The position numbers and the translations under genes were made by a program. The notes beneath the pieces are model-generated. The model ran no database searches. It saw nothing but the letters and a program-made list of their open reading frames with translations, and was not told where the DNA came from. Positions 9,384-33,834 of a stretch of 64,000 nt of DNA are shown here, piece by piece. The stretch lies in NCBI RefSeq assembly GCF_051105105.1, contig NZ_CP185339.1; one strand, written 5' to 3'. Every line of letters starts with the position of its first letter. Position 1 is the stretch's first letter. The DNA comes from Nannocystis pusilla (lineage in GTDB: Bacteria; Myxococcota_A; Polyangia; Nannocystales; Nannocystaceae).

Positions 9384-9404
9384 CATGTCCGTTCGAGCAT
9401 GTCC
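9384..9404. promoter_or_regulatory. CATGTCC-N7-CATGTCC direct-repeat motif (copy A)
   Basis: gaaCATGTCCgttcgagCATGTCCtatc. The same 7+7+7 arrangement recurs at 22172..22192 and 33769..33789. Confidence 0.4.
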
Positions 9405-9698
9405 TATCAATCCACCCCGCGAGCCGCGTCGCGCCGCCGCGCGCAGGAAGCTGGCGGCGGCTCGTGGCGAGCGGGTCCTCGAAGCCCCATCGCAGTCGTT
9501 CGGCGATCGTGAGTTTGCGAGCGGCCGCGCCCGCGAGCCACCGCATCCACGACGCGGGTGCTGCACCACGCGCGGGGAGCCCTCGCCCGCCGGCCCGTCG
9601 CTCGCTCGCGCTGCCCGGTCCGAAGCCCGTCCGATCGCTCGCGTGCACGGCCGGAAGATCGGTGAGCCGCCGCGATCGGCTCGCGCGACTGCAGCATC

Positions 9699-11142
9699 AT
9701 GACTCGCCTTCACCACTGCCCACCGCGCCGCCTGCTCGGCGCCGTGCTCCTCGCTTTCAGCGCTTGCAAGCCTGTCACGCTCGATCCCTTCGAGACCGAC
9801 GGCGCCACCGTCGATCCCGGCAGCACCGGCGGCAGCGGGGGCGACGACACCGGCGCCGCCGACTCGGGCCCGAGCACGACCGCCGACCTCACCACCACCG
9901 GCGACGAGCCGCTGCCGAGCTGCGACGGGCCGGTCACCGATTGCAAGCTGGACCAGGACCGCGACGGCTTCATGGCCCATTGCGACAACGCCCCCGATCA
10001 CTTCAACCCCGATCAGTCGGACGTCGACGGCGACGGCCTCGGCAACGTCGCCGACCTGTGCCCCACCCTCCCGGTCGGCGAGCCCAAGGCCGACAGCGAC
10101 AAGGACGGCATCGGCAACGCCTGCGACCTGTGCGCGAAGGCGGCCGCGCACTACAACGACCCCGACGCCCCGATCTCCGAGCGCATGAAGGTGCGCAACA
10201 TCCCGAGCACCGCCGACAGCGACCGCGACGGCATCGGCGACGCCTGCGACAACTGCGTGCGCACCCCCAATTGCGGCGACTACGGCGAGGGCCTCGACCC
10301 GTACGAGCCTCGGCGACCCGATCGCCGTGGACGGTCCTGACTGTCAGATCGACGCCGACAACGACCTCGTCGGCGACGCCTGCGCCGGCACCATGTTGCC
10401 CGGCGCCGCCGGCCCGGTCGGCTTCCTTCTCACGGACGACTTCGACCAGGACGGCCTGGCCAACAGCGACGACGCCTGCCCGCGCCAGCCCGTGCCCCTG
10501 CAAGCGTGCGACGACGACGCCGACTGCCCGGCGGCCAGCAAGTGCGTCCAGGGCCAGTGCGGCCACGCCGACTTCGACGGCGACAACGTCGGCAACGTCT
10601 GCGACACCTGCCCCTTTGACAAGAACCCGCAGCAGGTCCAGCCCGGCCAGGCGGAGGAGAGCGACCAGGACGGCGACTTCGTCGGCTTCCACTGCGAGTC
10701 CACGCCGGACGCCGACCTCATTCGCGACCCGCGCCGGATCGGCTTCTACGACCTCAGCGCCAACGGCTATTGCTGCGTCCGCCTCCACCCTGACGCCACC
10801 ACTCTGGATCCCGACGGCGCCACCGTGCCACTGACCCCCAAGGTCCTCGACCAACCGGGCGTCGTCCAGCTCCCGCCCGGCTGCGCCCAGGAGGGCCAGC
10901 CGCTGAACGGCACCGTCGACCTTGCGACCCTGTGGGCCAGCTTCTGCCTCATGCCGCAGTGGGACCAGGACTTCGACGGCATCGGCGACGCCCTCGACCT
11001 CTGCCCCTACTCGTTCGACCCCGTCAACACCCTCTACGTCGACGACGAGGACATGCAGTGGGAGCACTACGGCGAGTTCTGCCACGGCGAGTACAGCCCG
11101 GAACACCTCGACCCGGCGATGATGTGCCTCCCCGGCACCTGA
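9699..11142 (+). CDS. secreted thrombospondin type-3 (Ca-binding DxDxDGxxDxxD) repeat protein; +1 frameshift near 10300
   Basis: Signal peptide/lipobox (LLGAVLLAFSAC). Repeated DQDRDGF, DVDGDGLGNVADLC, DSDKDGIGNACDLC, DSDRDGIGDACDNC, DFDGDNVGNVCDTC, DQDFDGIGDALDLC. ORFs 9699..10340 and 10327..11142 join if a C is removed from gagCctc at about 10305. Confidence 0.7.
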
Positions 11143-11199
11143 TCGACGAGCTTGCCGCCACGCGTACCACCGCGTCGCGGCGGCGACCGCCGCCTCGCG

Positions 11200-12753: not shown

Positions 12754-13231
12754 CGCCCCGCAGTCTACACGGGCCCGTCTGCCGCGGACGGACGCGCCTC
12801 GGACCCTGGCGCGGCTCCTCGTCGTTCTGCCCGCGGATACTGGGTTTCTCGCCGGATCGCCCGCGAGCTCGCCACCGGTCACGACGAGGTAGCCGCTCGT
12901 GCCACCGCGCCCGGTCGCCAGCACCCATTTACCTGTCCTTCGCAACATGCCCCATGGAGCATAAGGCTCGCACCGGCCCGCTCGACCACGCGACCCATCG
13001 GCTCCCTGTCGCTCGAGCGACGCGCGGCACCCACCCGTGAATCAGCACGCGCGCGACGAAATGCCTCGACCGCCGCCGGGACCCCTGAAGCGGTGTGATG
13101 AATGGCGGATCGTCGAAACTGCCCGCGCATTGGCGAAAGCAGCCGCGCCGCGCGCATCACCGCTGCGGGTAACGCGTGCGGCCAGCGGAGCGGCCGCGGC
13201 GCATGTCACGGGCGACGCAAAAACGACGCGG

Positions 13232-13270
13232 CGCGCCTGCAGGTCACGGGACCTGCAGGCGCGCCGAATC
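13232..13270 (-). terminator. probable intrinsic terminator of csbD-like gene
   Basis: Perfect 16-bp inverted repeat ggcgcgcctgcaggtc-acggg-gacctgcaggcgcgcc. On the minus strand it is followed by a T-run (cgtcgTTTTTgcg), 34 bp downstream of the CsbD stop. Confidence 0.5.
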
Positions 13271-13303
13271 GCATCGCAGAGCGGCGCGGAGCGCCGACAA
13301 TCG

Positions 13304-13510
13304 TCACAGGTTGCTGTTGTTTTCGGCCTTGTAGCCGAGCTTGCGCTCGATCTCTTCGCGGCGCTCACCCGAGCGCTCCTGAATGATCCCGCACAGCTTG
13401 TCGGCGTTGCCTTCGGCCTTGAGGAAATCGTCGTCGGTCAGGTTCCCCCAGAACTGCTTCGCCTTGCCCTTGAGCTGCTCCCACTTCCCCTGAATTTGAT
13501 CGCGGTTCAT
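13304..13510 (-). CDS. csbD: CsbD-family general stress protein
   Basis: 68 aa: [48 protein letters not shown]...; canonical CsbD pattern. Confidence 0.8.
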
Positions 13511-14012
13511 GGTCGGTTTCTCCGCTCACCAGTTTGATCGTGGTTGCACCGCGCGCTCGCCCGACTAGCGCCACGAAACGGCGCCAGGCGCTCGGCGAAG
13601 GGCCTTGTCGGCCGTCGATTTCGGCGGCGCGTTCGCCATTCCCACCGTTCGCGCGCATGACGCAGGCCGATCGTACGAATCGGACCGCAGCGGGCTCGGC
13701 CGTCAGAACCTCTTCCTCCTCGGCCTCCGGGGCCGTTCTGTCGGGGACGCGGGCGTGCTGACGGGGGTATCGCCGGGCCCGCAGGGGAGACACCGATCGT
13801 CGCAGCGCCTTTCATGCGCGTCATGCGAAAGATCACCCGTCCTGCCGCGCTCGGCCCCCCTGCGCGCCCCACCACGAATCACCATTCGTGCGAATCATGG
13901 ACCCTCACGGGCTGCCGCGGCCGGGCCGGCCACGCGCTCGTCGGGGGTTCGCCGCGCCGCGGCCATCGGCCGGCGGGGCGCCTCGGGCACCGCGGACACC
14001 AAGGAGCATCGG

Positions 14013-17000
14013 GTGAACCTCACCAGGGACGAGCAGCGCACGTCGCTCACCAAGCGGCTCACCGTCGCGATCGCCACGCCGATCGCGCTCCTGTTGCTGC
14101 TCGGCGTCGTCCTCGGCCGGCAGATCCTCCTGATGGCGGACGACGCCGCCTGGGTCAACCACAGCAACGAGGTCATCTCGCAGGCCAACGCGACGATGCT
14201 CGAGATCGTCGATCAGGAGACCGCGCTGCGCGGCTATCTGCTGTCCGGCGATCGCCAGTACCTGGGGCCCTTCGAGCGGGCGCACCCGGACGGCAAGTTC
14301 GAGCGCCTGCACGAGCTCGTCGCCGACAGCCCCTCGCAGCAGGCTCAGTTCGATCAGGCCCACCAGCACTACCGCGAGTGGTACGCCACCTGCGAGGCCG
14401 CGCTGAGCGGTCACGACCTCGACCAGGCGCGCAGCCCCGCCGCCATGCTCGCGCGCAAGGCCCGGATGGACGCCATCCGCGAGGCCATGGCCGTGGCCAC
14501 CGACATCGAGAAGGACCTGCTGCGCGCCCGCGCCGTCGCCTCGGAGCGCTCCACCGCGATCGCGCGGACCGCCTTCGTCGCGCTGCTCGCCGGCGTCGCC
14601 CTCCTGCTCGCGTTCCTCTCTCGCCGCCAGCTCGCCTCGATCGCCAGCATCTTCGGCACCGCCCTCGACGCCGAGCAGCAGGCCCGCGCCGCGCTCGAGG
14701 CCGAGGCGTGGATCCGCGAGGGTCACACGCGCGTCGCCGAGGTCGTGCAGGGCGAGAAGAGCACCGTGCAGGTCGGCCACGACTGCCTGGCCGCGCTCGC
14801 CGCCCACGCCGGCGCCGACGTCGGCGCCTTCTTCGTGCGTGACGGCGGCGACTGGGTGCGCCGCGTCGGCCTCGCGCTCGACTCGCGGGTCGCCGGGCCG
14901 GAGACGTTCGCCGCCGGCGAGGGCGTCGTCGGCCGCGCCGCTGCCGGCGGCCAGGTCGTCGAGCTGCGCGACGCCGACGAGCTGCCCCTGCGCACCGGCA
15001 CCAGCGAGCGCTTCCCCGCCCACGTGCTCGTCCTGCCCGCGCGCGTCGACGGCGTCACCATCGCCGTGCTCGAGCTCGGCTTCCTCCGCCCGGCCGAGCC
15101 GCGCGTGCGCGCCTTGCTCGAGCGGATCGGCGAGACCGTCGCGCTCGCGGTCCGCAGCTCGGAGCAGAAGGAGCGGCTCGCCGCCCTGCTCGAGGAGACC
15201 CAGCGTCAGGCCGAGGAGCTGCAGACCCAGCAAGAAGAGCTGCGGGTCCAGAACGAGGAGCTCGAGCAGCAGACCCGCGCGCTCGAGGAGTCGCGGGCGC
15301 GCCTCGGCAATCAGCAGGCCGAGCTCGAGCAGATCAACGCCCACCTCGAGGAGCAGACGCAGGCGCTGCAGGCCGAGCGCGACACCCTCACGCAGGCGCA
15401 GATCCAGCTCAAGAGGACCTCGGCCTTCAAGTCCGAGTTCCTCGCCAACATGTCGCACGAGCTGCGCACCCCGCTCAACAGCTCGCTGATCCTCGCGCGC
15501 CTGCTGGCCGACAACCGCCAGGGCAACCTCGACGCCGAGCAGGTCAAGTTCGCCGAGACCATTTACTCGGCCGGCAACGACCTCCTCACCCTCATCAACG
15601 ACATCCTCGACCTGTCGAAGATCGAGGCCGGCATGCTCGAACGTCCGGCCCGAGACCATCTCGCTGGCGCGGGTCACCGACCAGATGATGTCGACCTTCC
15701 GCCCGGTCGCCCGCGACCGGCGGCTCGCCCTCGACCTCAACGTCCAGCGCAACGTCCCGGGCGCGCTGCAGACCGATCCGACGCGGCTGTCGCAGATCCT
15801 GCGCAATCTATTGTCGAACGCGCTCAAGTTCACCGAGAAGGGCGGCGTCAAGCTCACGGTGCGCGCCGCCGGGGCCGGTGTGGTCGCCTTCAACGTCACC
15901 GACACCGGCATCGGCATCCCGCCCGATCAGCAGGAGCTGATCTTCGAGGCGTTCCGCCAGGCCGACGGCACGACCAACCGCAAGTACGGCGGCACCGGCC
16001 TCGGTCTCTCGATCTCACGCGACCTGGCGCGCCTGCTCGGCGGCGAGCTCACCGTCGCCAGCGTCGTCGGCCGCGGCAGCACCTTCACCCTCACGATCCC
16101 CGCGCAGCTCGTCGCGCACGGTTCGGCCCCGGCGCCGACCCTCGCGCCTTTGCCACCTCCGGCGCCGATCCCTCCCTTGCGTCGCCTCCCCGCGCCGCCG
16201 CCCCCGCCCCAGCCGCCGACCGCCGCGCGCTCGATCCTCCTCGTCGAGGACGACCCCACGTTCGCCGGCATCCTCGCCGGCCTCGCCCGCGAGCTCGACT
16301 TCCACCCCCTCCTCGCCGACACCGCCGAGGAGGGCCTGGCGCTCGCGCGTCAGCAGCGGCCGAGCGCCATCGTCCTCGAACGTCTCCCTCCCCGATCGCT
16401 CCGGCCTCAGCGTCCTCGACGCGCTCAAGCACGACCCCGCGACCCGGCACATCCCGGTCCACGTCATCTCCGCCAGCGACCACACGCGCACCGCGCTCGA
16501 GATGGGCGCGGTCGCCTACGCGATAAAGCCCGTCGTCCGCGATCAGCTGGTCGCGGCCCTGCGGCGGCTCGAGTCGAAGGCCACGCAGTCGCTGCGGCGC
16601 GTCCTCGTCGTCGAGGACAACGTCGTCCACCGCGAGAGCACCTGCAAGCTGCTCGCGGCCGACGACGTCGAGACCGTGCCGGTCGGCACCGCCGCCGACG
16701 CGCTCCGCGCGTTGCGCACCACGACCTTCGACTGCATGGTCCTCGACCTCAGCCTGCCCGACAGGTCCGGCTTCGAGCTGCTGCGGGAGATGGCCCAGGG
16801 CGAGCAGTACGGCTTCCCGCCCGTCATCGTCTACACCGGCCGGGCGATCAGCCGCGCCGAGGAGCAGGAGCTCGGGCGCTTCTCGCAGTCCATCATCATC
16901 AAGGGCGCCCGCTCGCCGGAGCGGCTGCTCGACGAGGTCACCCTGTTCCTCCACCAGGTCGAGACCAGCCTCCCGCCCGAGCGGCAGCGCATGCTGCGGG

Positions 17001-17399
17001 ACGCTCGCCACCGCGACGCCGTGTTCGAGGGTCGGCGCGTGCTCGTCGTCGAGGACAACGTCCGCAACGTGTTCGCCTTGACCAGCGTGCTCGAGCCGCG
17101 CGGGGCCAAGGTGGAGATCGCGCGCAACGGCAAGGAGGCGCTGCAGCACCTGAAACTCAAGCCGGGCGTCGACCTGATCCTGATGGACCTCATGATGCCG
17201 GAGATGGACGGCCTCACCGCCACGCGGGCGATCCGCGCCGACCCGGCGACCGCCAAGATCCCGATCATCGCCCTCACCGCCAAGGCCATGGCCGACGATC
17301 GCGCCAGCTGCCTCGCCGCCGGCGCCAACGACTACATCGCCAAGCCGCTCGAACGTCGACAAGCTGCTGTCGCTGGCGCGGGTGTGGATGCCCAAATGA
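14013..17399 (+). CDS. hybrid sensor histidine kinase: TM-CHASE3-TM-GAF-coiled coil(EEL heptads)-HisKA-HATPase-REC-REC-REC; three +1 frameshifts (about 15640, 16380, 17350)
   Basis: GTG start with AAGGAG RBS. CHASE3 signature ([40 protein letters not shown]). GAF domain. H-box [15 protein letters not shown], then (next frame) N/G1/G2 boxes [31 protein letters not shown]. Three receiver domains with DxxxP...D...K patterns continue in successive frames. Each frame change sits at ctcgaACGTC. Confidence 0.75.
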
Positions 17400-18211
17400 C
17401 GACCGCGCCCGACCCCGAGCTGACCGCGCTGCTCGACGCGGTCTACCACCGCTATCACTACGACTTCCGCGGCTACGCCGAGGCCTCGCTGCGCCGGCGG
17501 ATCGGCGCCGCCCTGACCCACCTCCGCTGCCCCACGGTGAACGACCTGCGCGAGCGCGTGCTCGCCGAGCCGCGCGGCTTCAGCGAGCTGCTCCGCTTCC
17601 TCACCGTCCAGGTCAGCGACCTGTTCCGCGACCCCTCGTATTATCGGGCGATCCGCGAGCGCGTCGTGCCGTACCTGCGCACTTATCCCTCGCTCAAGGT
17701 GTGGGTCGCCGGCTGCGCCACCGGCGAGGAGGCCTACTCGCTCGCCATCGTGTTCGCCGAGGAGGGCCTGCTCGACCGCACCCTCATCTACGCCACCGAC
17801 ATCCACCCCGAGAGCCTGCGCGCCGCCGAGGCCGGCGTCTACGACCTCGACCGCTTCGCCCGCTTCTCCGACAGCTACCGGCAGGCCGGCGGGCGCGGCT
17901 CGCTGTCCGACTTCTACACCGCGCAGTACTCGTCGGCGATCCTCGATCGTCGGCTCAAGCAGGCGATCCTGTTCTCCGACCACAGCCTCGCCACCAACGT
18001 CGCCTTCGCCGAGGTCGAGCTGGTGTCGTGCCGCAACGTCCTGATCTACTTCGACCGCCCGCTGCAGGACCGGGCGATCGGCATCTTGCGCGACTCGGTG
18101 CGGCGCAAGGGGTTCCTCGGCCTGGGCGCCAAGGAGACCCTGCGGTTCTCGTCGCACGCCGAGGCGTTCACCGAGCTCGTCCCCGAGGACCGGATCTATC
18201 AACGGCGGTAG
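17396..18211 (+). CDS. cheR: chemotaxis-type protein-glutamate O-methyltransferase CheR
   Basis: CheR N-terminal and SAM-MTase signatures (VWVAGCATGEEAYSLAIV, LVSCRNVLIYFD). Start ATG overlaps the kinase stop (ATGA). Confidence 0.85.
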   Translation: MTTAPDPELTALLDAVYHRYHYDFRGYAEASLRRRIGAALTHLRCPTVNDLRERVLAEPRGFSELLRFLTVQVSDLFRDPSYYRAIRERVVPYLRTYPSLKVWVAGCATGEEAYSLAIVFAEEGLLDRTLIYATDIHPESLRAAEAGVYDLDRFARFSDSYRQAGGRGSLSDFYTAQYSSAILDRRLKQAILFSDHSLATNVAFAEVELVSCRNVLIYFDRPLQDRAIGILRDSVRRKGFLGLGAKETLRFSSHAEAFTELVPEDRIYQRR

Positions 18212-22124: not shown

Positions 22125-22158
22125 GCCAGGCGTGCCCTCTCGGGCACGTCGATCCGAC

Positions 22159-22192
22159 CATGTTTTAAGGGCATGTCCTCCGTGACATGTCC
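22159..22192. promoter_or_regulatory. CATGTTTTAA + CATGTCC-N7-CATGTCC motif (copy B)
   Basis: ccATGTTTTAAgggCATGTCCtccgtgaCATGTCCtttc, lying between convergent adh and kinase genes. Confidence 0.4.
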
Positions 22193-22194
22193 TT

Positions 22195-23523: not shown

Positions 23524-23884
23524 GGGCACACGGACGTGCAGGCCCGGACCATATGGACCCGACTCCGGCGATGGGCGAGCTCGCGCTTTCTGGCGGGCAG
23601 CGGGCGCGGAGAGCAACTCGCCCGCCGCATCGCTGCCCGGGTGCGGCGCGCCCGGGCGCATGAGACGCACCGTCCACCGCCTGCGCCCGGGCCGGGAAAA
23701 ACCCCGGCGAACCGCCCCCGCGGGCCCATGGCTCCGTCGCCCGATCGAAGCCCGCCCCATGCCCCGGGCGCCCCGGCGCCCTGCTGTGATTGCCTCGAGG
23801 ACATGTCCGATCGGTCCTGTCATGCATGGCCGAGCCCGCCGGCCCTCGCTGGCGCCCCGGCGAATCGCCCGCATACTGCGCGAG

Positions 23885-24877: not shown

Positions 24878-26275
24878 TCGTCGGCGCCGGGCCCAACGGC
24901 CTGGCCGCCGCCATCACCCTCGCCGCCGCGGGTCACTCGACCCTCGTCGTCGAGGCCGGCGCGACCCCGGGCGGCGGCTGTCGCTCGGCCGAGCTCACCC
25001 TGCCCGGCTTCGTCCACGATCCCTGCGCCTCGATCCACCCGCTCGGCCTGGCCTCGCCGTACTTCCGCACCCTGCCGCTCGCGCGTCACGGCCTTTCGTG
25101 GATCGAGCCGCCGACCCAGCTCGTCCACCTGCTGAACGACGGCCGGGCCGTGCGCCTCGAGCGGTCGATCGCCGCCACCGCGGAGCAGTTCGGCGCCGAC
25201 GCCCCGGCCTACCGCGACCTCGTCGCGCCGTTCGTCGAGCGCTTCGACACCCTGTTGCCGATGATCTTGAGCGCGCTGCGCTGGCCCGCCGATCCGCTGC
25301 TCCTGGCTCGCTTCGGCGTGGTCGGCCTGCGCTCGATGCAGGGCCTCGCGCGGCGCTTCACCGGCGAGCCCGCGCGCGCCTTGCTGGCCGGCATCGCCGC
25401 CCACGCCATGGTCCCGCTGGACGCCCCTGCCACCGCCGCCTTCGCCCTCGTGCTGACGATCGCCGCCCACGCGGTCGGCTGGCCGCTCGCCCGCGGCGGC
25501 TCGCAGGCGATCGTCGACGCCCTCGTCGCGCACCTGCGCGAGCTCGGCGGCGAGCTCGAGCTGAACCACGAGGTCGCCCACATCTCCGAGCTGCCGCCGG
25601 CCCGCGCATACTTGTTCGAACGTCTCGCCGCGGCGCCTCGCCTCGATCACGGCCGGCCGCCTGCCCTCCGCTTACCTGCGCCGGCTCGGCCGCTTCCGCT
25701 ACGGCCCCGGCGTCTACAAGCTCGACTGGGCCTTGCAGGCGCCGATCCCCTGGCGCGATCCGGCCTGTGCGCGCGCCGGCACCGTCCACCTCTCGGGCTC
25801 CCTCGAGGCCGTCGCCGACACCCTCGTCCACGTCCACCGCGGCGCCCTCGCGGCCGAGCCGTTCGTCTTGCTCGCGCAGCCGACCCTGTTCGACGCCGGC
25901 CGCGCACCGCCGGGCATGCACATCGCCTGGGCCTACTGTCACGTGCCGCACGGCTCGGCGATCGACGCCGGCGCGCAGATCGAGGCCCACATCGAGCGCT
26001 TCGCCCCCGGTTTCCGCGACACCATCCTCGCCCGCTCGGCCCGCACCGCCGTCGACATGGCCCGCTACAACCCCAACTACGTCGGCGGCGACATCAACGG
26101 CGGCCTCGCCGATGTGCGCCAGCTGTTCTTTCGCCCGCTCGTCCGCGCCGATCCGTACACCACCCCCGCGCCCGACATCTTCCTCTGCTCGTCGTCGACC
26201 CCGCCCGGCGGCGGCGTCCACGGGATGTGCGGCCACGCCTGCGCGCGCAGCGTGCTCGCGCGGGTGTTCGCGTGA
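24850..26275 (+). CDS. FAD/NAD(P)-dependent oxidoreductase, phytoene-desaturase (CrtI)-like; +1 frameshift near 25620
   Basis: YDAVIVGAGPNGLAAAITLAAAGHSTLVVEA dinucleotide-binding fold. C-terminal half continues in ORF 25733..26275 (GTVHLSGS...YVGGDINGG...). Frames join when the extra A in ttcgaACGTC is removed. Confidence 0.7.
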
Positions 26276-27674: not shown

Positions 27675-27719
27675 TCGCCCGACTGTGATGATTCGAGGTT
27701 CGCCGGGCAGGGGTCGCCA

Positions 27720-28805
27720 ATGAGCGGAGTCGTATCACCGGAGTTCGCGCTCCCCTCGCCGGCGAGGGAGCCGGAGCTGCGCGCGCGGATCGGCGGACAG
27801 GTCCGCCCGCCGCGCGAGGTCGTGGTCATGCGCGCCCTGCCGGGCCTCGGCGACTTCCTGTGCGCCACCCCGGCGCTGCGGGCCCTGCGAGCCGCGCTGC
27901 CGCGGGCCAGGATCACCCTCTTGGGCCTCGCGCGGACCCGCGAGCTCGTCGCCCGCTACCCGCACCTCGTCGACGACCTGCTCGAGTTCCCCGGCTTCCC
28001 CGGCCTGCCCGAGACGCCCGCCGACGTGCGCGCCCTGCCCGACTTCCTGCGCGCCGTCCAGGGCCGCTTCGACCTCGCCCTGCAGATGCACGGCGACGGC
28101 CTCGTCAGCAACATCTTCGTTCAGCTGCTGGGCGCGCGCGCCAGCGCCGGCTTCTACGCCCCGCCGCAGCCGTGCCCCGATCCTGCGACCTTCGTGCTCT
28201 ACCCCGGCGACTTCGCCGAGCCGCGGATCCTCCTCGCCTTGCTCGCCGCGCTCGGCATCGAGGCGCGCGGCGAGCGGCTCGAGTTCCCGCTCGCGCCGGG
28301 CGACGCGCACCAGTGCGACGCGCTGCTGCAGGCCGCCGGCCTCTCGCCCGACGCCGCGTTCGCGGTCGTCCACCCCGGCGCCGCCGAGCCGCACCGCCGC
28401 GTCGACCCCGGCGTGCTCGGGCAGGTCGCCGACGGCCTGGTGACGCGCGGCCTCGCGGTCGTCCTCACCGGCGCCGCCGACGAGGCCGACCTCGCCGCCG
28501 CGGTCCGCCGCCACGCCGGACGCGACCTCGTCGATCTGGTCGGCCGCACCGGCCTCGGCTCGCTCGGCGCGCTGGTCGAGCGCGCCCGCCTCGTCGTCGC
28601 CGGCGACACCGGCGTCTCGCACCTGGCCAGCGCGCTGTCCACCCCGAGCGTCGTCGTCTTCCGCAGCACCGCGCCGGGCCGCTGGGCGCCCCTCGATCGC
28701 GAGCGTCACCGCGTCGTCGACGCCCGCGCGGTCCCGCCGACTTCCGCGGCCATCCTCGCCGAGGCCGACGCCGCCCTGTTCCTCGCGGGGGTGGATCGTG
28801 CTTGA
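27720..28805 (+). CDS. glycosyltransferase family 9 (LPS heptosyltransferase-like)
   Basis: VVVMRALPGLGDFLCATPALRALRAA, AVVHPGAAEPHRR, VAGDTGVSHLASALSTPSVVVF: the GT9 pattern. Confidence 0.75.
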   Translation: MSGVVSPEFALPSPAREPELRARIGGQVRPPREVVVMRALPGLGDFLCATPALRALRAALPRARITLLGLARTRELVARYPHLVDDLLEFPGFPGLPETPADVRALPDFLRAVQGRFDLALQMHGDGLVSNIFVQLLGARASAGFYAPPQPCPDPATFVLYPGDFAEPRILLALLAALGIEARGERLEFPLAPGDAHQCDALLQAAGLSPDAAFAVVHPGAAEPHRRVDPGVLGQVADGLVTRGLAVVLTGAADEADLAAAVRRHAGRDLVDLVGRTGLGSLGALVERARLVVAGDTGVSHLASALSTPSVVVFRSTAPGRWAPLDRERHRVVDARAVPPTSAAILAEADAALFLAGVDRA

Positions 28806-29320
28806 CCCGCGGGTCGCCCTCCGCCGCGCTCGCCGGCTGCTCGTCGTCCCGCCGGCGGCCGGCTGCGACGAGCTCGGGCCGGCGCTCGTGCGCCTGCGCG
28901 TCGCGGTGCCGCAGGCGATGGTGGTCCTGTTGGCCGACGCGCGCGCGGCCGGGCGCGTCGCCGCCTTCGTCGACCAGGTCGTGCCTGCCGGCGCCCTGAC
29001 GCGGTGCGACGCCCCGCACCTCTCGACCCTGGTCGAGCGGCTGGCCGCGGCGCGCCTCGACGCCGCTTCTGGTGTTTACGGCCGTCGGCGAGACCGCCTT
29101 CGAGGTCGCCTACCTCGCCTATCTCGCCGGCATCCCGGTGCGCGCCGGCTTCGCCGGCGAGTTCGGCGGCGGCGTGCTCGCGCCGGCCGTCCCGCCCCCG
29201 TCGGCCCGCGTCATCGGTCCGGGGCGTCACCTCTCCCTGCTCGACGCGCTCGACCTGAGCGCGGCGCTCGCCCCCGCGAGCGCGAAAGCGAGGCCCTCGT
29301 GCGACGACTCCGCGTCCTGA
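28798..29320 (+). CDS. GT9-like N-terminal-domain protein, short and internally frameshifted (possible gene fragment)
   Basis: Segments LLVVP...VVLLADARAAGRV and (next frame) VFTAVGETAFEVAYLAYLAGIPVRAGF resemble the first GT9 Rossmann domain. Only ~170 aa, and the frame changes near 29066. Confidence 0.3.
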
Positions 29321-30430
29321 CCTGGCACGTTCACGGCAGCTACCTCTACTACCTCACCCAGGCGCCGCACGAGTTCTACCTGCCCGTAAAGCCAGGTCGA
29401 CCCGAGGGCTACGGCGGGCGCAGCGGCAGCTTCGCCTGGGGCGCCAACGTCCACGAGGTCCCGGTGGAGGCCCTCGCGCAGCAGCAGTTCGACGTCGTCC
29501 TGTTCCAGTCGCGCCGCAACTACGAGTGCGACCAATTCGAGGTCCTCGGCGCCGCCCAGCGCCGGCTGCCGCGCGTCTACCTCGAGCACGATCCGCCGCG
29601 CGAGTCGCCGACCGACACCCGCCACCCGGTCGACGACCCCGACGTCTCTGCTCGTCCACGTCACCCCGTTCAACGCCCTGATGTGGGACGCCGGGCGCAC
29701 CCCCGTGCGGGTCGTCGAGCACGGCGTCGTCGTCCCCGACGACGCCGCCTACAGCGGCGAGCTCGCGCGCGGCATCGTCGTCGTCAACGACCTCGCGCGG
29801 CGCGGGCGTCGGCTCGGCCGCGACGTGTTCGACCGCGTGCGCGCCCACGTCCCGCTCGACCTCGCCGGCATGGACTCGGCCGCGCTCGGCGGCCTCGGCG
29901 ACCTGCCGCTGCGCGAGCTCCACGCCCGGCTCGGCCGCTACCGCTTCTTCTTCAACCCGATCCGCTACACCAGCCTCGGCCTGGCGGTGTGCGAGGCGAT
30001 GATGATCGGCCTGCCGATCCTCGGCCTCGCCACCACCGAGATGAGCACCGCCGTGCAGAGCGGCGTCAACGGCTACGTCGAGACCGACCTCGACCGCCTG
30101 CTCGCGCACATGCGGCGCCTGCTCGCCGACCCCGCCGAGGCCGCCGAGCTGGCCGCCGGCGCGCGCCGGATCGCCCGCCAGCGGTTCGGCATCGGCCGCT
30201 TCGCCGCCGATTGGTCGCGGGTCCTGGGCGAGGTCACCGGATGTCCCGAGGGACAGCTCGTCGCGCCGATACCGGGATGTCCCGAGGGACAGCTCGTCGC
30301 GCCCGCCGCCGGATGTCCCGAGGGACAGCTCGTCGCGCCCGCCACCGGATGCCCCGAGGACCAGCTCGTCCCGCCGATCACCACCTGTCCCGCGGGACAG
30401 GCCCCCGAGCCGGCCCGGAGGACCGCGTGA
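29299..30430 (+). CDS. glycosyltransferase family 4 with C-terminal GCPEGQLVAPxx 12-aa tandem repeats; +1 frameshift near 29655
   Basis: GTG start (VRRLRVLTWHVHGSYLYY). GT4 C-terminal domain FFNPIRYTSLGLAVCEAMMIGLPILGLATTEMSTAVQSGVNGYV in ORF 29681..30430. The two ORFs join at gacgtcTctg. Confidence 0.65.
30239..30410 (+). repeat. 36-bp in-frame tandem repeat (x4.5) encoding GCPEGQLVAPxx
   Basis: ggatgtcccgagggacagctcgtcgcgcc repeated with 36-bp period inside the 3' end of the GT4 gene. Confidence 0.8.
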
Positions 30431-32298
30431 AGCCGCTGCCGTTCGAGACCGGCGCGGGCGTCGGTCAGCCGCAGAGCCCGCTGCGGATCGCCATGATCAG
30501 CGAGCACGCCTCGCCGCTCGCCCCGCTCGGCGGGCGCGACAGCGGCGGCCAGAACGTCTACGTCGCCCAGGTCGCGCGCCACCTCGGCCGCCTCGGCCAC
30601 CGCGTCGACGTGTTCACCCGCCGCGACAGCCCGACCTTGCCGACGGTCGTCGAGCTGGCCGACGGCGTGCGCGTGATCCCGGTCGACGCCGGCCCGCCCG
30701 CGCCGCTGGCCAAGGAGTCGCTGCTGCCGCTCATGCCCGCGTTCACCCGCGAGGTCGCGGCCCACGCCCGGCGCGAGCGCTACGACCTGGCCCACGCCAA
30801 CTTCTTCATGAGCGGCCTCGTCGCCGCCGACCTCAAGCGCGAGCTCGGCGTCCCGTTCGCGGTCACCTTCCACGCGCTCGGCAAGGTCCGGCGCCAGCAC
30901 CAGGGCCAGGCCGACGGCTTCCCCGACGAGCGCTTCGCCATCGAGGAGCGGGTCGTCGGCGAGGCCGACGTGATCGTCGCCGAGTGTCCGCAGGACGAGG
31001 TCGACCTCATGACCCTCTACTCGGCCGACCCCGAGAAGCTCGTCATGGTCCCGTGCGGCTTCGACCCCGAGGAGTTCTGGCCGGGCGGACGCGCCGAGGC
31101 CCGCGCCGCGCTCGGCCTCGCCGACGGCGACCGCATCATCTTGCAGCTCGGGCGCATGGTCCCGCGCAAGGGCGTCGACAACGTCATCCGCGCGCTCGCG
31201 CGGCTGCCGGGCGAGCTGCGGGCGCGGCTCGTCGTCGTCGGCGGCGAGTCGCGCCGGCCCGACCCGGCGCTCACCCCCGAGATCGGCCGATTGATGGCAG
31301 TCGCCCGCGACGAGGGCGTCGCGGATCGCGTCACCTTCGTCGGCAGCCGCGGCCGCGGCGAGCTGCGCGACTACTACGTCGCCGCCGACGTGTTCGTCAG
31401 CACCCCCTGGTACGAGCCGTTCGGCATCACCCCGCTCGAGGCCATGGCCTGCGGCGTCCCCGTCATCGGCGCCAACGTCGGCGGCATCGCCCACACCGTC
31501 GCCCACGGCGAGACCGGCTACCTCGTCCCGCCGAGCGACCCCGACGCCCTGGCCGACAAGCTCGCGCTCGTGTTGTCGCAGCCGCGCCTGGCCCGGCGCC
31601 TGGCCCAGCTCGGCCTGCAGCGCGTCCACGCCCTCTTCACCTGGGAGAAGGTCGCCGCGCGCCTGGCCGACGCCTTCGCCGCGGCCGCCGGCCGGCGCCC
31701 CGCCCAGGCGCCCACCGCCGCCTTCGCCGCCGTCGACCGCGGCTTCGACGACCTGCTCGCGGTGCTCTCGCGCGCCAAGACCTGCCTGCGCGACGACATC
31801 GTCCGCGCCGCCGACCTCGTCAGCGGCGCCTTCGCCCGCGGCGGCAAGGTGCTCGTGTGCGGCAACGGCGGCAGCGCCACCGACGCCCAGCACTTCGCCG
31901 CCGAGCTCGTCGGCCGCTTCCTCGCCCCCGACCGCGCCGCCTTGCCGGTCATCGCCCTCAACGCCGACACCGCGGTGCTGACCGCCTGGGCCAACGACGT
32001 TGGCTACGCCGACGTGTTCGCCCGCCAGGTCCGCGCCTACGGCCGCCCCGGCGACGTGGTGTTCGGCATCTCGACCAGCGGTCGCTCGGCCAACGTCGTC
32101 GCCGCCCTCAAGACCGCGCGCGACTGCGGCCTGCGCACCTTCGCCTTGCTCGGCGGCACCGGCGGCGAGGCCGGCGACCTCGCCGACTGCGCCCTCATCG
32201 TCCCCTCGCCCGACACACAGCGCATTCAGGAGGTCCACACATTGGCCCTGCACCTGATCTGCGAGCTGGTCGAGGCGCGGGTCGCCCCGCTATCCTGA
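30421..32298 (+). CDS. fusion protein: GT4 glycosyltransferase (MshA-like) + SIS-domain sedoheptulose-7-phosphate isomerase (GmhA)
   Basis: N-terminal part RIAMISEHASPLAPLGGRDSGGQNVYVAQVARHLGRLGHRVDVFTRR ... EPFGITPLEAMACGVPVI (GT4 E-x7-E). C-terminal 190 aa GGKVLVCGNGGSATDAQHFAAELVGRF...VFGISTSGRSANVV...IQEVHTLALHLICELVE matches GmhA. One continuous frame, no stop between the two domains. Confidence 0.75.
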   Translation, partial: DRVKPLPFETGAGVGQPQSPLRIAMISEHASPLAPLGGRDSGGQNVYVAQVARHLGRLGHRVDVFTRRDSPTLPTVVELADGVRVIPVDAGPPAPLAKESLLPLMPAFTREVAAHARRERYDLAHANFFMSGLVAADLKRELGVPFAVTFHALGKVRRQHQGQADGFPDERFAIEERVVGEADVIVAECPQDEVDLMTLYSADPEKLVMVPCGFDPEEFWPGGRAEARAALGLADGDRIILQLGRMVPRKGVDNVIRALARLPGELRARLVVVGGESRRPDPALTPEIGRLMAVARDEGVADRVTFVGSRGRGELRDYYVAADVFVSTPWYEPFGITPLEAMACGVPVIGANVGGIAHTVAHGETGYLVPPSDPDALADKLALVLSQPRLARRLAQLGLQRVHALFTWEKVAARLADAFAAAAGRRPAQAPTAAFAAVDRGFDDLLAVLSRAKTCLRDDIVRAADLVSGAFARGGKVLVCGNGGSATDAQHFAAELVGRFLAPDRAALPVIALNADTAVLTAWANDVGYADVFARQVRAYGRPGDVVFGISTSGRSANVVAALKTARDCGLRTFALLGGTGGEAGDLADCALIVPSPDTQRIQEVHTLALHLICELVEARVAPLS

Positions 32299-32424
32299 AA
32301 TCATCGCACTCGGAGGACCGATGACCCTCGTGATCGCATCACCCCTCGTCACCGGCGGCCCGGGCCTCTGCCTGAAATCATCGCACTCGGAGGACCGATG
32401 ACCCTCGTGATCGAATCACCCCTC
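32294..32424 (+). repeat. 77-bp-period direct duplication of the RBS/start region of the downstream SDR gene
   Basis: cctgaaatcatcgcactcggaggaccgATGaccctcgtgatcg(c/a)atcacccctcg occurs at 32294..32347 and 32371..32424. Confidence 0.85.
32321..32401 (+). CDS. 26-aa upstream ORF created by the duplication (MTLVIASPLVTGGPGLCLKSSHSEDR), stop overlapping the SDR start (ATGA)
   Basis: Same RBS (GGAGGA) and first 6 codons as the SDR gene. The stop TGA at 32399..32401 overlaps the ATG at 32398..32400. Confidence 0.3.
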   Translation: MTLVIASPLVTGGPGLCLKSSHSEDR

Positions 32425-33139
32425 GCGGACAAGATCGTGCTCGTCACCGGCGGCGGCTCGGGCCTCGGCGCCGAGATCGCCCGCACCCTCGCGGCCGCCG
32501 GCGCGCACGTGATCGCCGCCGACATCCAGACCGGCCCGCTCGCCCGCCTCGTCGCCGAGGTGCGCGACCTCGGCGGCCACATCGAGGCCGCCGAGCTCGA
32601 ACGTCCGCGACGCCGACGCCGGGCAGTCCTTGATCGACGCCATCGTCGCCCGCCACGGCCGGTTCGACGTCCTCGTCAACAACGCCGGCACCGACAAGAC
32701 CCTCGCCGTCGACGAGCTCAGCGTCGACGACATCGACCGCGTCCTCGCGGTCAACCTGCGCGGCCCGTTCGTCCTCAGCCGCGCCGCCTTCCCCCAGCTG
32801 CGCGCCCAGGGCGGCGGCTACATCGTCAACATCGTCTCGACCGCCGCCAAGCGGGCCTGGCAGAACGCCAGCGCCTACCACGCCAGCAAGTGGGGCCTCC
32901 TCGGCCTGTCGCACGCCCTGCACGTCGAGGGCCGCCCGTTCGGCATCAAGGTCACCGCCCTGCTGGCCGGCGGCATGCGCACCCCCTTCATCCTCGACCG
33001 CTTCCCCGACACCCCGATCACCAACCTTCAGGACCCGCGCAACGTCGCCGAGACCATCCGCTTCCTCCTCGCCATGCCCGGCGAGTCGGTCATCCCCGAG
33101 CTGATGGTCGTGCCGATGCGCGAGACGAGCTGGCCATGA
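32398..33139 (+). CDS. SDR-family oxidoreductase (LPS/sugar-modification cluster); +1 frameshift near 32598
   Basis: IVLVTGGGSGLGAEIAR. Second half in ORF 32630..33139 (VLVNNAGT, YHASKWGLLGL). The halves join when the extra A in ctcgaACGTC is removed. Confidence 0.7.
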
Positions 33140-33721
33140 CCCGCCTCCGCCCCGCCGCCTTCCTCGACAAGGACGGCACCCTCATCGACGACGTCCCCTA
33201 CAACGTCGACCCCGCCCACGTCCGCCTCACCCGCGGCGCCCGCGACGGCGCCTGGTCGCTGCGGGCCGCCGGCTACGCGCTCGTCGTCGTCACCAACCAG
33301 TCCGGCGTCGCCCGCGGCCTGTTCAGCGCCCACGACCTGCTCGGCGTCCAGGCCCGCGTCGAGGACCTGCTCGGCCTCGAGCTCGACGGCTTCTACTGGT
33401 GCCCGCACCTGCCCGCCGGCGTCGTCGCCGAGTACGCCGTCGTCTGCGGCTGCCGCAAGCCCGCGCCCGGCCTGCTCACCCGCGCCGCCGCCGAGCCTCG
33501 GCCTCGACCTGGCGCGCTCGTGGATGATCGGCGACATCGCCAGCGACGTCGAGGCCGGCCGCCGCGCCGGCTGCCGCACCGCCCTGCTCGCCGCCGCGCC
33601 GCCCCCGACGCTCCGCCCCGCGCCCACCCTCGTCGCCGCCGACCTCGCCGAGGCCGCCCGCCGGATCGTCGGCGACTCCCCCCGCAGCGACCACGACGAG
33701 CACCCCGCGCCCCTCGCCTGA
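33136..33721 (+). CDS. gmhB: D-glycero-beta-D-manno-heptose-1,7-bisphosphate 7-phosphatase (GmhB, HAD family); +1 frameshift near 33497
   Basis: AAFLDKDGTLIDD (HAD motif I), VVVTNQSGVARG, CPHLPAGVVAEYAVVCGCRKP (Zn-binding Cys cluster). Continues in ORF 33524..33721 (MIGDIASDVEAGRRAG). Junction at gagCctc. Start overlaps the SDR stop (ATGA). Confidence 0.7.
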
Positions 33722-33768
33722 GCGCCCGCGATGTCCCCCCGACGCCCACGATCGCCGGACCGTTCAGA

Positions 33769-33834
33769 CATGTCCTTTTCGACATGTCTAAAAAACAACG
33801 TCCGAACGGACATGTTCTCGGCGGCATGTTTTAA
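33769..33834. promoter_or_regulatory. motif cluster upstream of hldE (copy C): CATGTCC-N7-CATGTCT, GGACATGTTC and CATGTTTTAA
   Basis: cagaCATGTCCttttcgaCATGTCtaaaaaacaacgtccgaacGGACATGTTctcggcggCATGTTTTAAaag. Ends 28 bp before the hldE ATG. Confidence 0.45.

What the first reader, a model, noticed from the sequence alone, without database searches (positions are those of the whole stretch)
9384..33834. Recurrent intergenic motif: CATGTCC-N7-CATGTCC direct repeat accompanied by CATGTTTTAA / GGACATGTTC
Three separate loci carry two CATGTCC heptamers at exactly 14-bp spacing. These are 9384..9404 (CATGTCCgttcgagCATGTCC), 22172..22192 (CATGTCCtccgtgaCATGTCC, preceded by CATGTTTTAA at 22159) and 33769..33789 (CATGTCCttttcgaCATGTCt, followed by GGACATGTTC at 33808 and CATGTTTTAA at 33825). 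In a ~70+% GC genome the AT-rich CATGTTTTAA decamer is very improbable by chance. Locus C sits 28-95 bp upstream of hldE, and locus A is directly upstream of a small minus-strand ORF. Together they look like an operator/promoter family for an unidentified regulator, or a miniature repeat element. A 7-bp direct repeat with a 7-bp spacer is typical of response-regulator or NarL/LuxR-type half-site arrangements, and several such regulators are encoded in the window.
Basis: seen in the sequence. Interest (0 to 1): 0.6.

Follow-up and report, generated by a model that had tools for sequence, protein, structure and literature searches.

The report
Nannocystis palindromic 14-bp repeat arrays
The motif is real, but it is one family of short palindromic repeats scattered through Nannocystis genomes, mostly just after gene ends, so it resembles known hairpin repeats near stop codons rather than the binding sites of a gene regulator.

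Summary
CATGTCC-N7-CATGTCC occurs at 9384, 22172 and 33769, and the pattern with up to 2 mismatches gives 10 hits against 0.36 expected.

The real unit is a 14-bp repeat: a self-palindromic core GGACATGTCC plus 4 variable bases, in tandem arrays of 2-8 units. Core pairs peak sharply at a 14-bp period. CATGTTTTAA and GGACATGTTC are degenerate units of the same arrays. The window holds more copies at 23799 and 12929, and a 36-bp derivative at 30235-30400.

The organism is a Nannocystis (Myxococcota). Small samples of Plesiocystis and Enhygromyxa have none.

Across the family the arrays favour convergent intergenic regions, lie a median of 13 bp from a stop codon, are rare in divergent (promoter) regions, and sometimes sit in frame inside genes. 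Unit number differs between species. Sites B and C fold into stable hairpins.

Best reading: a lineage-specific repeat like REP elements or the mycobacterial TRIT terminator motif, not a response-regulator operator set. A sequence-specific factor remains possible, because the core is conserved without compensatory changes.

The parts
9381..9404 (.). Site A: two 14-bp-phased units, GAACATGTCC gttc GAGCATGTCC. It lies in a divergent intergenic region between a small minus-strand ORF (9060-9224) and a TSP3-repeat lipoprotein gene (from 9699).
   Evidence: The orthologous copy in N. pusilla is at L082 240-263. The whole ~430-bp segment 9080-9510 is absent from strain ILAH1 (L081). Its RNA fold is not better than shuffles.
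12929..12952 (.). Site E: a degenerate two-unit array, TTACCTGTCC ttcg CAACATGCCC.
   Evidence: The orthologue in N. pusilla is intact (L082 2047-2070, GGACATGTCC ttcg AGACATGCCC) and sits 22 bp after a stop codon between convergent genes. It is absent from L081.
22156..22192 (.). Site B: three units, (GA)CCATGTTT taa / GGGCATGTCC tccg / TGACATGTCC. The first is degenerate and 13 bp from the next. The site lies between the stop codons of the convergent alcohol-dehydrogenase gene (stop 22124, + strand) and the GAF histidine-kinase gene (stop 22195, - strand).
   Evidence: The RNA hairpin on the + strand gives -34.8 kcal/mol for 22125-22200, z = -4.35. Orthologous arrays have 3 units (L081), 4 units (L082) and 2 units (L083), with different spacers.
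23799..23822 (.). Site D: a perfect core GGACATGTCC, spacer gatc, then a degenerate unit GGTCCTGTCA. It lies in the divergent region between the GAF histidine-kinase gene (start about 23529, - strand) and a short-chain dehydrogenase gene (start 23885, + strand).
   Evidence: The first core is invariant in L081, L082 and L083. No significant fold.
30235..30400 (+). A related 36-bp tandem repeat (4.6 copies). Each copy contains TGTCC-cgag-GGACA. It lies inside the 3' end of a glycosyltransferase gene (29681-30430) and encodes TGCPEGQLVAPx repeats.
   Evidence: TRF. Copy number is 1 in N. punicea, 3 in ILAH1, 5 here and about 8 in N. pusilla. The same 36-bp architecture occurs in metagenome loci L151, L097 and L086.
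33766..33835 (.). Site C: five 14-bp slots. They are AGACATGTCC tttt / CGACATGTCT aaaa / AACAACGTCC gaac (degenerate) / GGACATGTTC tcgg / CGGCATGTTT taaa. The array starts 45 bp after the stop codon of a HAD-hydrolase-like gene fragment (33721) and ends 27 bp before the hldE start codon (33862).
   Evidence: Two adjacent-unit hairpins are predicted on the + strand, -26.8 kcal/mol, z = -3.27.

Best explanation
The three loci belong to an abundant interspersed repeat family specific to Nannocystis and close relatives.

Shown:
- The unit is 14 bp: a self-complementary 10-bp core (consensus GGACATGTCC) plus 4 variable bases. Units stand head to tail in arrays of 2-8.
- Two neighbouring cores can pair into a 10-bp stem with a 4-base loop. 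This gives a simple reason for the fixed 14-bp period.
- Many arrays sit at the tip of longer palindromes.
- Arrays lie mainly just downstream of stop codons, above all between convergent genes.
- Unit number differs between species at the same locus.

Inferred mechanism:
- The arrays act chiefly as 3'-end hairpins, either bidirectional terminator-like structures or transcript-end-protecting structures. The model is REP elements in enterobacteria and the TRIT motif in mycobacteria.
- Arrays grow and shrink by replication slippage or unequal recombination. Copies in promoter regions (sites A and D) or inside genes are tolerated by-products.

The core sequence is kept without compensatory changes. 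Something that reads the sequence itself therefore probably also acts on it. That could be a protein binding the duplex or hairpin, or a copying or homogenising enzyme. Its identity is unknown.
For: Phasing and lineage specificity:
- Core pairs at a 14-bp period number 15, against 0-3 at every other period from 8 to 30.
- Control DNA from other phyla has 2 arrays in 1.32 Mb, against about 14 in 85 kb of Nannocystis sequence.
- The organism is a Nannocystis: its alcohol dehydrogenase is 95% identical to those of strain ILAH1 and N. pusilla.
- The motif recurs in loci L081-L084.
About 105 have GC 0.66-0.80, and many carry several arrays.
- Plesiocystis and Enhygromyxa samples have no arrays, and a related Myxococcales MAG has one, 19 bp after a stop codon.

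Position:
- Arrays by context: 70 convergent, 47 unidirectional, 9 divergent. The numbers of such regions are 122, 263 and 109.
- Arrays not used to select the loci give 0.89 per kb convergent, 0.23 unidirectional, 0.08 divergent and 0.019 coding.
- Median distance to the nearest stop codon is 13 bp. In unidirectional regions 38% of arrays lie within 25 bp of the upstream stop, against 19 +/- 5% for random placement.
- With the public gene calls for N. pusilla locus L084, arrays start 22-25 bp from stop codons or overlap them.

Hairpin:
- Sites B and C fold with z = -4.35 and -3.27.
- Flanks of arrays, mostly two-unit ones, are more complementary than permuted flanks: 3.57 against 2.85 +/- 0.13 of 8 positions, and a contiguous run of 1.61 against 0.62 +/- 0.09.
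- Examples include a 60-bp perfect palindrome in L164 and an A-run/T-run-flanked hairpin in L189.

Turnover:
- Site B has 2-4 units in four species.
- The 36-bp derivative has 1, 3, 5 and about 8 copies.
- Some arrays have identical spacers in neighbouring units.

Precedents:
- TRIT is a sequence-conserved, palindromic, genus-restricted motif tightly linked to stop codons (PMC3152330).
- REPs lie mostly between unidirectional and convergent ORFs, and some lie inside genes (PMC3733652).
Against: - No transcript data exist, so termination or 3'-end protection is inferred from position and folding only.
- T-runs after the arrays are rare (2 of 204 arrays have a run of 4 or more T within 10 nt), so they are not canonical intrinsic terminators.
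- Adjacent cores show no compensatory covariation (31 double changes against 37.6 +/- 4.9 expected). The spacer profile is strand-symmetric. Pairing alone therefore does not explain why the same sequence is kept.
- Part of the flank complementarity comes from decayed palindromic units on both sides.
- In the window itself two of six arrays (A and D) lie in divergent regions, and A, D and E do not fold better than shuffles.
- The large positional sample comes from metagenome contigs chosen for holding a perfect two-unit array. The unbiased subset is small: 6 convergent, 8 unidirectional and 2 divergent arrays.
- Gene calls on those contigs are my own. The caller reproduced the public calls on L082.
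Confidence: 0.5

Rival explanations
1. The arrays are tandem binding sites for one sequence-specific DNA-binding protein, such as a global regulator, a nucleoid or roadblock protein, or a topoisomerase. The protein could read each palindromic core as a dimer. Alternatively it could read the 14-bp palindrome TGTCC-N4-GGACA formed across two units, which also fits the PadR-type pattern ATGT-N8-ACAT. Binding would be cooperative along the array, as with MetJ or the omega repressor on tandem repeats.
For: - The core sequence is conserved at orthologous site B in four species while spacers, flanks and unit number differ.
- The first core of site D is invariant in four species, 63 bp upstream of a gene start.
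- Deviations in neighbouring cores are independent, with no compensatory changes.
- The motif is strand-symmetric and strictly phased.
- TGTCC-N4-GGACA is enriched (10 against 1.36 expected), whereas GGACA-N4-TGTCC is not.
- The authors of the TRIT study also proposed a factor binding that conserved motif (PMC3152330).
Against: - Arrays are rarest where promoters are, in divergent regions.
- Density is far above a normal regulon: 8 arrays in the 21 kb of L084.
- Some arrays lie in frame inside genes.
- No candidate protein was identified.
- The resemblances to PadR, MetJ and omega operators rest on recalled consensus patterns and were not tested.
Confidence: 0.2
2. The arrays are purely selfish miniature mobile elements, comparable to REPIN or MITE elements. 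A dedicated enzyme such as a RAYT-type tyrosine transposase would copy them into tolerated sites, with no host function. The 3'-end bias would then reflect only where insertions do least harm.
For: - High copy number and lineage restriction.
- Enrichment between convergent genes, the least harmful location.
- Presence or absence at orthologous places: site E is in L082 and the window but not in L081.
- In-frame copies lie in loops or linkers of NadA, an MFS transporter, a SpoU methylase and QueA.
- A perfect copy sits in one NadA gene and a decayed copy in its 88%-identical orthologue. More distant NadA sequences lack it.
Against: - No target-site duplication and no terminal inverted repeats beyond the units.
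- No GTAG or CGTC tag.
- No transposase was found or could be searched for.
- The NadA case is not a clean 24-bp insertion: outgroups are only 3 codons shorter.
- Unit-number changes and identical neighbouring spacers point to local slippage rather than transposition.
Confidence: 0.15
3. The arrays are promoter elements. A GGACA would serve as the -35 element and the AT-rich edge (TTTTAA or CAAAAT) as the -10 element, driving hldE and the small ORF at site A.
For: By eye, AGGACA-N18-CAAAAT at site A (minus strand) and CGGACA-N17/18-TTTAAA at site C face genes. The AT-rich decamer is highly unusual in 72% GC DNA.
Against: - The sigma-70 scan finds no promoter-like site at any of the three loci.
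- Site B faces only gene 3' ends.
- The AT-rich box is not conserved at orthologous site B.
- The family is depleted in divergent regions.
- Spacing to the AT box is inconsistent in L084 (inspection of the output).
Confidence: 0.03
4. The core is a DNA-uptake-type self-recognition sequence, like the neisserial DUS, which also accumulates as paired copies in terminators.
For: It is a short lineage-specific 10-mer at high density, paired in hairpins just after genes and also present in coding DNA. [quoted passage not shown]
Against: - Strict 14-bp tandem arrays of up to 8 units are not a DUS feature.
- Density in coding DNA is very low (0.019 per kb), whereas uptake sequences are common in genes.
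- Nothing was examined about competence in Nannocystis.
Confidence: 0.03

Closest known systems
TRIT (Tuberculosis Rho-independent terminator) motif of Mycobacterium (Gardner et al. 2011, PMC3152330)
   Same: Both are sequence-conserved palindromic motifs present in many copies, mostly bidirectional. Both are restricted to one genus or lineage and are tightly associated with annotated stop codons in a high-GC genome poor in canonical terminators. In both cases the sequence conservation suggests an unknown binding factor.
   Different: The sequence and the lineage are unrelated. TRIT is a single longer hairpin, not a tandem array of a self-palindromic 10-mer with a 14-bp period. TRIT centres about 8 nt inside the coding sequence, whereas these arrays lie mostly 0-50 bp after the stop codon. 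Unit-number variation is not a described TRIT feature.
REP / BIME / REPIN elements with RAYT transposases (PMC3733652, PMC3337134)
   Same: Both are short palindromic interspersed repeats in high copy number. Both lie predominantly between unidirectional and convergent ORFs and downstream of coding regions, with occasional copies inside genes. Both often occur as paired units that fold into hairpins.
   Different: REPs are 20-40 bp imperfect palindromes tagged by GTAG or CGTC, and pairs are inverted with variable linkers. Here the unit is a perfect 10-bp self-palindrome without such a tag, arranged head to tail at exactly 14 bp. No RAYT association is known.
Paired DNA uptake sequences in Neisseria terminators (PMC2397512)
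   Same: A lineage-specific 10-mer occurs as closely spaced complementary pairs forming hairpins just downstream of genes.
   Different: The DUS is not self-palindromic, is frequent inside genes, and does not form phased multi-unit arrays. A link to DNA uptake is untested here.
Tandem-operator repressors (MetJ met-boxes, omega repressor heptads); PadR operators ATGT-N8-ACAT (recalled from general knowledge, not tested)
   Same: Short units repeated head to tail at a fixed phase, in arrays of 2-8, each unit or junction being a small palindrome. ATGT-N8-ACAT is present across most unit junctions, for example at sites B and C1.
   Different: Those operators sit in promoters of a limited regulon. 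These arrays are mostly at gene 3' ends and far more numerous.
Rickettsia palindromic elements (RPE; mentioned in PMC3733652, in-frame insertion recalled from general knowledge)
   Same: Palindromic repeats that can lie in frame inside protein-coding genes, adding a short peptide in loops or linkers.
   Different: RPEs are 100-150 bp, carry a CGTC tag and are not tandem 14-bp arrays.

Membership tests
Response-regulator (NarL/OmpR-type) direct-repeat operators | Asymmetric half-sites in direct repeat | tested here: not met
   The unit is a self-palindrome, GGACATGTCC. The position counts from 45 units are symmetric, and the spacer profile is strand-symmetric.
Response-regulator (NarL/OmpR-type) direct-repeat operators | Sites lie in promoter regions of the regulated genes | tested here: not met
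   Site B lies between convergent genes. Across the family, density is 0.89 per kb in convergent regions against 0.08 per kb in divergent ones.
Sigma-70-type promoters | -35 and -10 hexamers at 16-18 bp spacing | tested here: not met
   The consensus scan found 0 promoter-like sites at each of the three loci.
REP / REPIN | Short palindromic repeat in high copy number, mostly extragenic | tested here: met
REP / REPIN | Preferential location between convergent and unidirectional ORFs, downstream of coding regions | tested here: met
REP / REPIN | GTAG (or CGTC) tetranucleotide tag at one end | tested here: not met
   Tag frequencies within 12 bp of array ends are at or below those at random places: GTAG in 0.5% of arrays against 3.1%, and CGTC in 11% against 17%.
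REP / REPIN | Association with a single-copy RAYT (IS200/IS605-like tyrosine transposase) flanked by the repeats | not testable with these tools
   No whole Nannocystis genome or annotation was available. No such gene was seen in the loci fetched, but they were not scanned systematically.
TRIT-like conserved terminator motif | Sequence-conserved palindromic hairpin | tested here: met
   (sites B and C).
TRIT-like conserved terminator motif | Narrow distribution relative to stop codons | tested here: met
   Median distance to the nearest stop codon is 13 bp. The enrichment over random placement in unidirectional regions is 38% against 19 +/- 5%.
TRIT-like conserved terminator motif | Transcripts actually end there | not testable with these tools
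   No RNA data were available.
TRIT-like conserved terminator motif | Sequence homology to the mycobacterial motif | tested here: not met
   No Rfam family reached its gathering score at any site. The organism is a myxobacterium, so the resemblance is by analogy only.
Canonical intrinsic terminator | GC-rich hairpin followed by a U-tract | tested here: inconclusive
   The hairpin is present at B and C. The scan flagged one weak terminator-like site at each. Across the family, T-runs of 4 or more follow only 2 of 204 arrays.
MITE | Terminal inverted repeats plus target-site duplication | tested here: not met
   Beyond the units there are no conserved ends and no duplicated flanks in the aligned examples.
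DNA uptake sequences | High density throughout the genome including coding DNA; a competence system that recognises it | tested here: inconclusive
   The lineage-specific 10-mer is paired in hairpins near gene ends, but density in coding DNA is only 0.019 per kb. Competence was not examined.
PadR-type operator | ATGT-N8-ACAT inverted repeat in the promoter of the regulated gene | tested here: inconclusive
   The pattern is present across unit junctions (B: ATGTcctccgtgACAT; C1: ATGTccttttcgACAT), but the location is mostly not in promoters. The consensus is recalled from memory and no protein was tested.

The most novel reading that the evidence does not exclude
Nannocystis and its close relatives have a dedicated, sequence-specific system acting at gene ends. 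An unknown protein would recognise the GGACATGTCC duplex or hairpin, in DNA or RNA, and use phased arrays of it to stop or process transcripts. That requirement would keep the same 10-mer at hundreds to thousands of loci. This would be a factor-dependent termination or 3'-end signal of a kind proposed for the mycobacterial TRIT motif but never demonstrated.
Probability: 0.15. Interest if true: 0.7.

Novelty: new variant of a known kind. Interest (0 to 1): 0.45.

Why it matters
High-GC bacteria such as myxobacteria and mycobacteria have few canonical terminators, and how their transcripts end is poorly understood. A conserved, easily recognisable, phased palindromic array right after stop codons gives a concrete handle for Term-seq, reporter and pull-down experiments in Nannocystis.

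It also matters for annotation and regulon prediction. Motif finders will keep reporting this repeat as a "regulator site" upstream of genes such as hldE unless it is masked.

The arrays are hypervariable between species, and even change the length of a glycosyltransferase. They could therefore serve as typing markers and are a source of protein-length variation.

I found no description of this family in the searchable literature.

Tried and rejected
- **Exact-protein look-up of the window's hldE:** not on record.
- **Rfam at gathering threshold:** nothing at the sites. There are no tRNA genes in the window.
- **Promoter scans:** empty at all three loci.
- **Literature:** the string GGACATGTCC returns only p53 response-element papers, a coincidence. 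Searches pairing Nannocystis with "palindromic" and myxobacteria with "repetitive extragenic palindromic" returned nothing relevant.
- **-35/-10 reading:** considered and rejected because spacing is inconsistent and the position bias is wrong.
- **RNA-specific tetraloop test** (YNMG or GNRA loops oriented with the transcript): no strand asymmetry.
- **Compensatory covariation between neighbouring cores:** none.
- **Clean in-frame insertion in NadA against orthologues:** inconclusive. Close orthologues carry a decayed copy, and outgroups differ by 3 codons, not 8.
- **Look-up of N. pusilla Lon (P0136):** failed.
- **Viral contigs:** one hit only, so no sign of a phage origin.
- **Local tblastn of window proteins against the metagenome loci:** no orthologues. 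Taxonomy was therefore obtained from a Lon protease search.


Full report
**1. The observation**

- CATGTCC-N7-CATGTCC with up to 2 mismatches gives 10 hits against 0.36 expected; none of 100 shuffles reaches 10.
- ACATGTCC gives 8 hits against 0.6 expected.
- CATGTTTTAA gives 2 hits against 0.05 expected.

**2. What the repeat really is**

I listed every CATG-centred 10-mer close to GGACATGTCC in the window and in related loci. The heptamer turns out to be the right-hand part of a 10-bp self-palindrome, and the palindromes follow each other at exactly 14 bp.

In the window plus an unrelated N. pusilla locus, pairs of cores at a 14-bp period number 15. Every other period from 8 to 30 gives 0-3. 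Position counts over 45 units give G-G-A/g-C-A-T-G-T-C-C followed by four poorly conserved bases.

So the feature is a 14-bp tandem unit, not a 7+7 direct repeat. This changes the description of several loci:
- Site C is one array of five slots: 33766, 33780, a degenerate slot at 33794, 33808 and 33822.
- "GGACATGTTC" and "CATGTTTTAA" are two of those units with C-to-T changes.
- At site B the CATGTTT unit is 13 bp from its neighbour, not 14.
- The window holds further copies at 23799-23822 (a perfect core plus a degenerate unit) and 12929-12952 (degenerate).
- TRF found a 36-bp tandem repeat at 30235-30400 in which each copy contains TGTCC-cgag-GGACA.
- TGTCC-N4-GGACA is enriched (10 against 1.36 expected), whereas the swapped arrangement GGACA-N4-TGTCC is not (1 against 1.53).

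**3. Organism and spread**

The alcohol dehydrogenase next to site B is 95% identical to those of Nannocystis sp. ILAH1 and N. pusilla, and 90% identical to that of N. punicea. The syntenic loci L081-L083 and a non-syntenic N. pusilla locus, L084, carry the same arrays in their intergenic regions. L084 has eight arrays in 21 kb.

As a control, 1.32 Mb from other phyla (loci fetched in an unsuccessful hldE search) holds two arrays.

About 105 of them have GC 0.66-0.80. Many carry several arrays, with up to 8 units in one array.

Samples of about 22 kb from Plesiocystis pacifica, Enhygromyxa salina and Nannocystaceae strain ST9 have none. One Nannocystis sp. MAG sample has essentially none. A more distant Myxococcales MAG has one array, 19 bp after a stop codon.

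The family is therefore lineage-specific and patchy within the Nannocystaceae. IMG/VR gave a single hit. I found no description of it in the searchable literature.

**4. Where the arrays sit in the window**

I built a codon-usage gene caller trained on the public gene calls of L081, L083 and L084. It reproduced the public calls of L082, which was not in the training set, almost exactly.

| Site | Position | Context |
|---|---|---|
| A | 9381-9404 | Divergent, between a small minus-strand ORF and a TSP3 lipoprotein gene |
| B | 22156-22192 | Between the stop codons of convergent ADH and GAF-kinase genes |
| D | 23799-23822 | Divergent, between the GAF-kinase gene and a dehydrogenase gene |
| C | 33766-33835 | Starts 45 bp after the stop of a HAD-hydrolase-like gene fragment and ends 27 bp before hldE, inside a heptose/LPS-core gene cluster |
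| E | 12929-12952 | Downstream of a gene end in N. pusilla (22 bp after the stop codon) |

**5. Where the arrays sit across the family**

Over 723 kb (the window, L084 and the high-GC metagenome loci; 87% coding), arrays by context were:
- 70 in convergent regions (122 such regions)
- 47 in unidirectional regions (263 regions)
- 9 in divergent regions (109 regions)
- 60 called coding

The metagenome loci were chosen for holding a perfect array. I therefore repeated the count with arrays that do not match the search pattern and lie more than 200 bp from one that does. This gave 0.89 per kb convergent, 0.23 unidirectional, 0.08 divergent and 0.019 coding. The trend is the same, but the numbers are small (6, 8, 2 and 12 arrays).

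The median distance to the nearest stop codon is 13 bp. In unidirectional regions 38% of arrays lie within 25 bp of the upstream stop, against 19 +/- 5% for random placement in the same regions (maximum 0.36 in 1000 trials). Long arrays often fill a convergent gap exactly, as in L176 and L199. With the public gene calls for L084, arrays begin 22-25 bp from stop codons or overlap them.

This is the opposite of what a promoter or operator family should show.

**6. Arrays inside genes**

About 17 strong arrays have good in-frame coding scores on both sides. They encode peptides such as GHVxxDMS. They fall in a loop that interrupts the Pfam match of NadA, in the central loop of an MFS transporter, in the linker of a SpoU methylase, and within QueA.

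The NadA case was followed up. The perfect copy in L096 corresponds to a decayed copy (GGACAGGAATcgggGGACAGGTCG) in an 88%-identical orthologue. More distant NadA sequences lack it but are only three codons shorter. This is suggestive of an old insertion but is not a clean one.

**7. Structure**

Two neighbouring cores can pair into a 10-bp stem with a 4-base loop, which explains the 14-bp period simply.
- Sites B and C fold well: -34.8 kcal/mol, z = -4.35, and two hairpins at -26.8 kcal/mol, z = -3.27.
- Sites A, D and E do not fold better than shuffles.
- The flanks of arrays, mostly two-unit ones, are more complementary to each other than permuted flanks: 3.57 against 2.85 +/- 0.13 of 8 positions, and a contiguous run of 1.61 against 0.62 +/- 0.09.
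- Striking cases include a 60-bp perfect palindrome that includes both stop codons (L164) and an A-run/hairpin/T-run arrangement (L189).
- Part of this signal comes from decayed, GC-shifted units on both sides.

Three results argue against a pure pairing constraint:
- Deviations in neighbouring cores are not compensatory (31 double changes against 37.6 +/- 4.9 expected by permutation).
- Loop bases show no transcript-strand asymmetry.
- T-runs after the arrays are rare.

**8. Turnover**

- Orthologous site B has 2-4 units in four genomes, with unrelated spacers but conserved cores.
- Site E is present in N. pusilla and the window but absent from ILAH1.
- Site A lies on a ~430-bp segment that ILAH1 lacks.
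- The 36-bp derivative inside the glycosyltransferase gene has 1, 3, 5 and about 8 copies in N. punicea, ILAH1, the window and N. pusilla. This changes the protein's length.
- Several metagenome arrays have identical spacers in neighbouring units, a sign of recent tandem duplication.

**9. Interpretation**

The family looks and behaves like the known classes of conserved palindromic repeats at gene ends:
- REP elements lie predominantly between unidirectional and convergent ORFs, with some inside genes (PMC3733652).
- The mycobacterial TRIT motif has 147 palindromic, mostly bidirectional copies. It is genus-restricted and narrowly placed at stop codons, and its authors suspected an unknown binding factor (PMC3152330).
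- Paired DNA uptake sequences in Neisseria terminators are a further parallel (PMC2397512).

It is not a member of the REP family as defined. There is no GTAG or CGTC tag, and a RAYT link could not be tested. It has no sequence relation to TRIT.

I therefore favour a lineage-specific 3'-end hairpin repeat that evolves by slippage. Position, structure and turnover are shown. Termination or mRNA-end protection is inferred.

The sequence conservation without covariation leaves real room for a sequence-specific protein, either as part of that function or as the rival "binding array" model. A purely selfish mobile element is a further rival. The response-regulator operator reading and the promoter reading are poorly supported.

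**10. Caveats**

- The large positional sample is ascertained by the search pattern and relies on my own gene calls.
- Only one metagenome contig was assigned to Nannocystis by a protein search.
- No orthologue of site C could be fetched.
- No RNA or binding data exist.
- The window's assembly carries frequent frameshifts. All five genes I compared with N. pusilla are split across reading frames, so single-base spacings are uncertain.

Noticed in passing
window 30235-30400: A 36-bp tandem repeat (4.6 copies) lies inside the 3' end of a glycosyltransferase gene and encodes TGCPEGQLVAPx repeats. Copy number is 1, 3, 5 and about 8 in N. punicea, ILAH1, the window and N. pusilla, so the protein length varies between species. 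Each copy carries TGTCC-cgag-GGACA, which links it to the 14-bp family.
   Followed up: partly
window 9699-11142, 14013-18211, 18808-20275, 24850-26272, 29299-30415: All five genes compared with their N. pusilla orthologues are split over two or three reading frames (tblastn). The window's assembly seems to carry many single-base indels. This looks like sequencing error rather than mass pseudogenisation, but that was not tested.
   Followed up: partly
window 3851-3901 (-): An nhaA-I riboswitch (Rfam RF03057) matches at 51.6 bits against a gathering score of 37. The match overlaps the 5' end of the open reading frame 3338-3922 on the minus strand.
   Followed up: no
window about 13255-13295: A perfect 15-bp-stem palindrome, GCGCGCCTGCAGGTC-acgg-GACCTGCAGGCGCGC, lies just downstream of the csbD-like gene. 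It is invariant in the window, L081 and L082 and is probably that gene's terminator.
   Followed up: no
window 47965-48497; 45250-45676; 55215-55418; 57944-58291: Several large tandem-repeat arrays of other families are present (periods 46/137 bp, 83/102 bp, 52 bp and 43-63 bp; TRF). They do not contain the GGACATGTCC core.
   Followed up: no
window 9080-9510: A ~430-bp segment holding the small minus-strand ORF and site A is present in the window and N. pusilla (L082, where the ORF belongs to a 179-aa gene). It is missing from strain ILAH1 (L081).
   Followed up: partly
window 22159-22168, 33825-33834, 9374-9382; L084 5153-5163, 5244-5254: AT-rich edges (CATGTTTTAA, GATTTTGAA, GATGTTTAAAA, GATGATAAAAG) sit directly next to arrays in cultured Nannocystis. 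This is very unusual for 72% GC DNA. They are not conserved at orthologous site B, and their role is unknown.
   Followed up: partly
L151 4363-4602; L097 9194-9289; L086 5908-6003: Metagenome Nannocystis-like contigs carry higher-order 36-bp repeats built from two 14-bp units plus 8 bp, both in intergenic DNA and inside ORFs.
   Followed up: no
window 27720-35325: The genes around site C form a heptose/LPS-core cluster. By Pfam they are GT9, GT4 fused to SIS, a short-chain dehydrogenase, a HAD-hydrolase-like fragment (possibly GmhB) and bifunctional HldE. The window's hldE has no close relative among GTDB representative genomes (best 56% identity).
   Followed up: no
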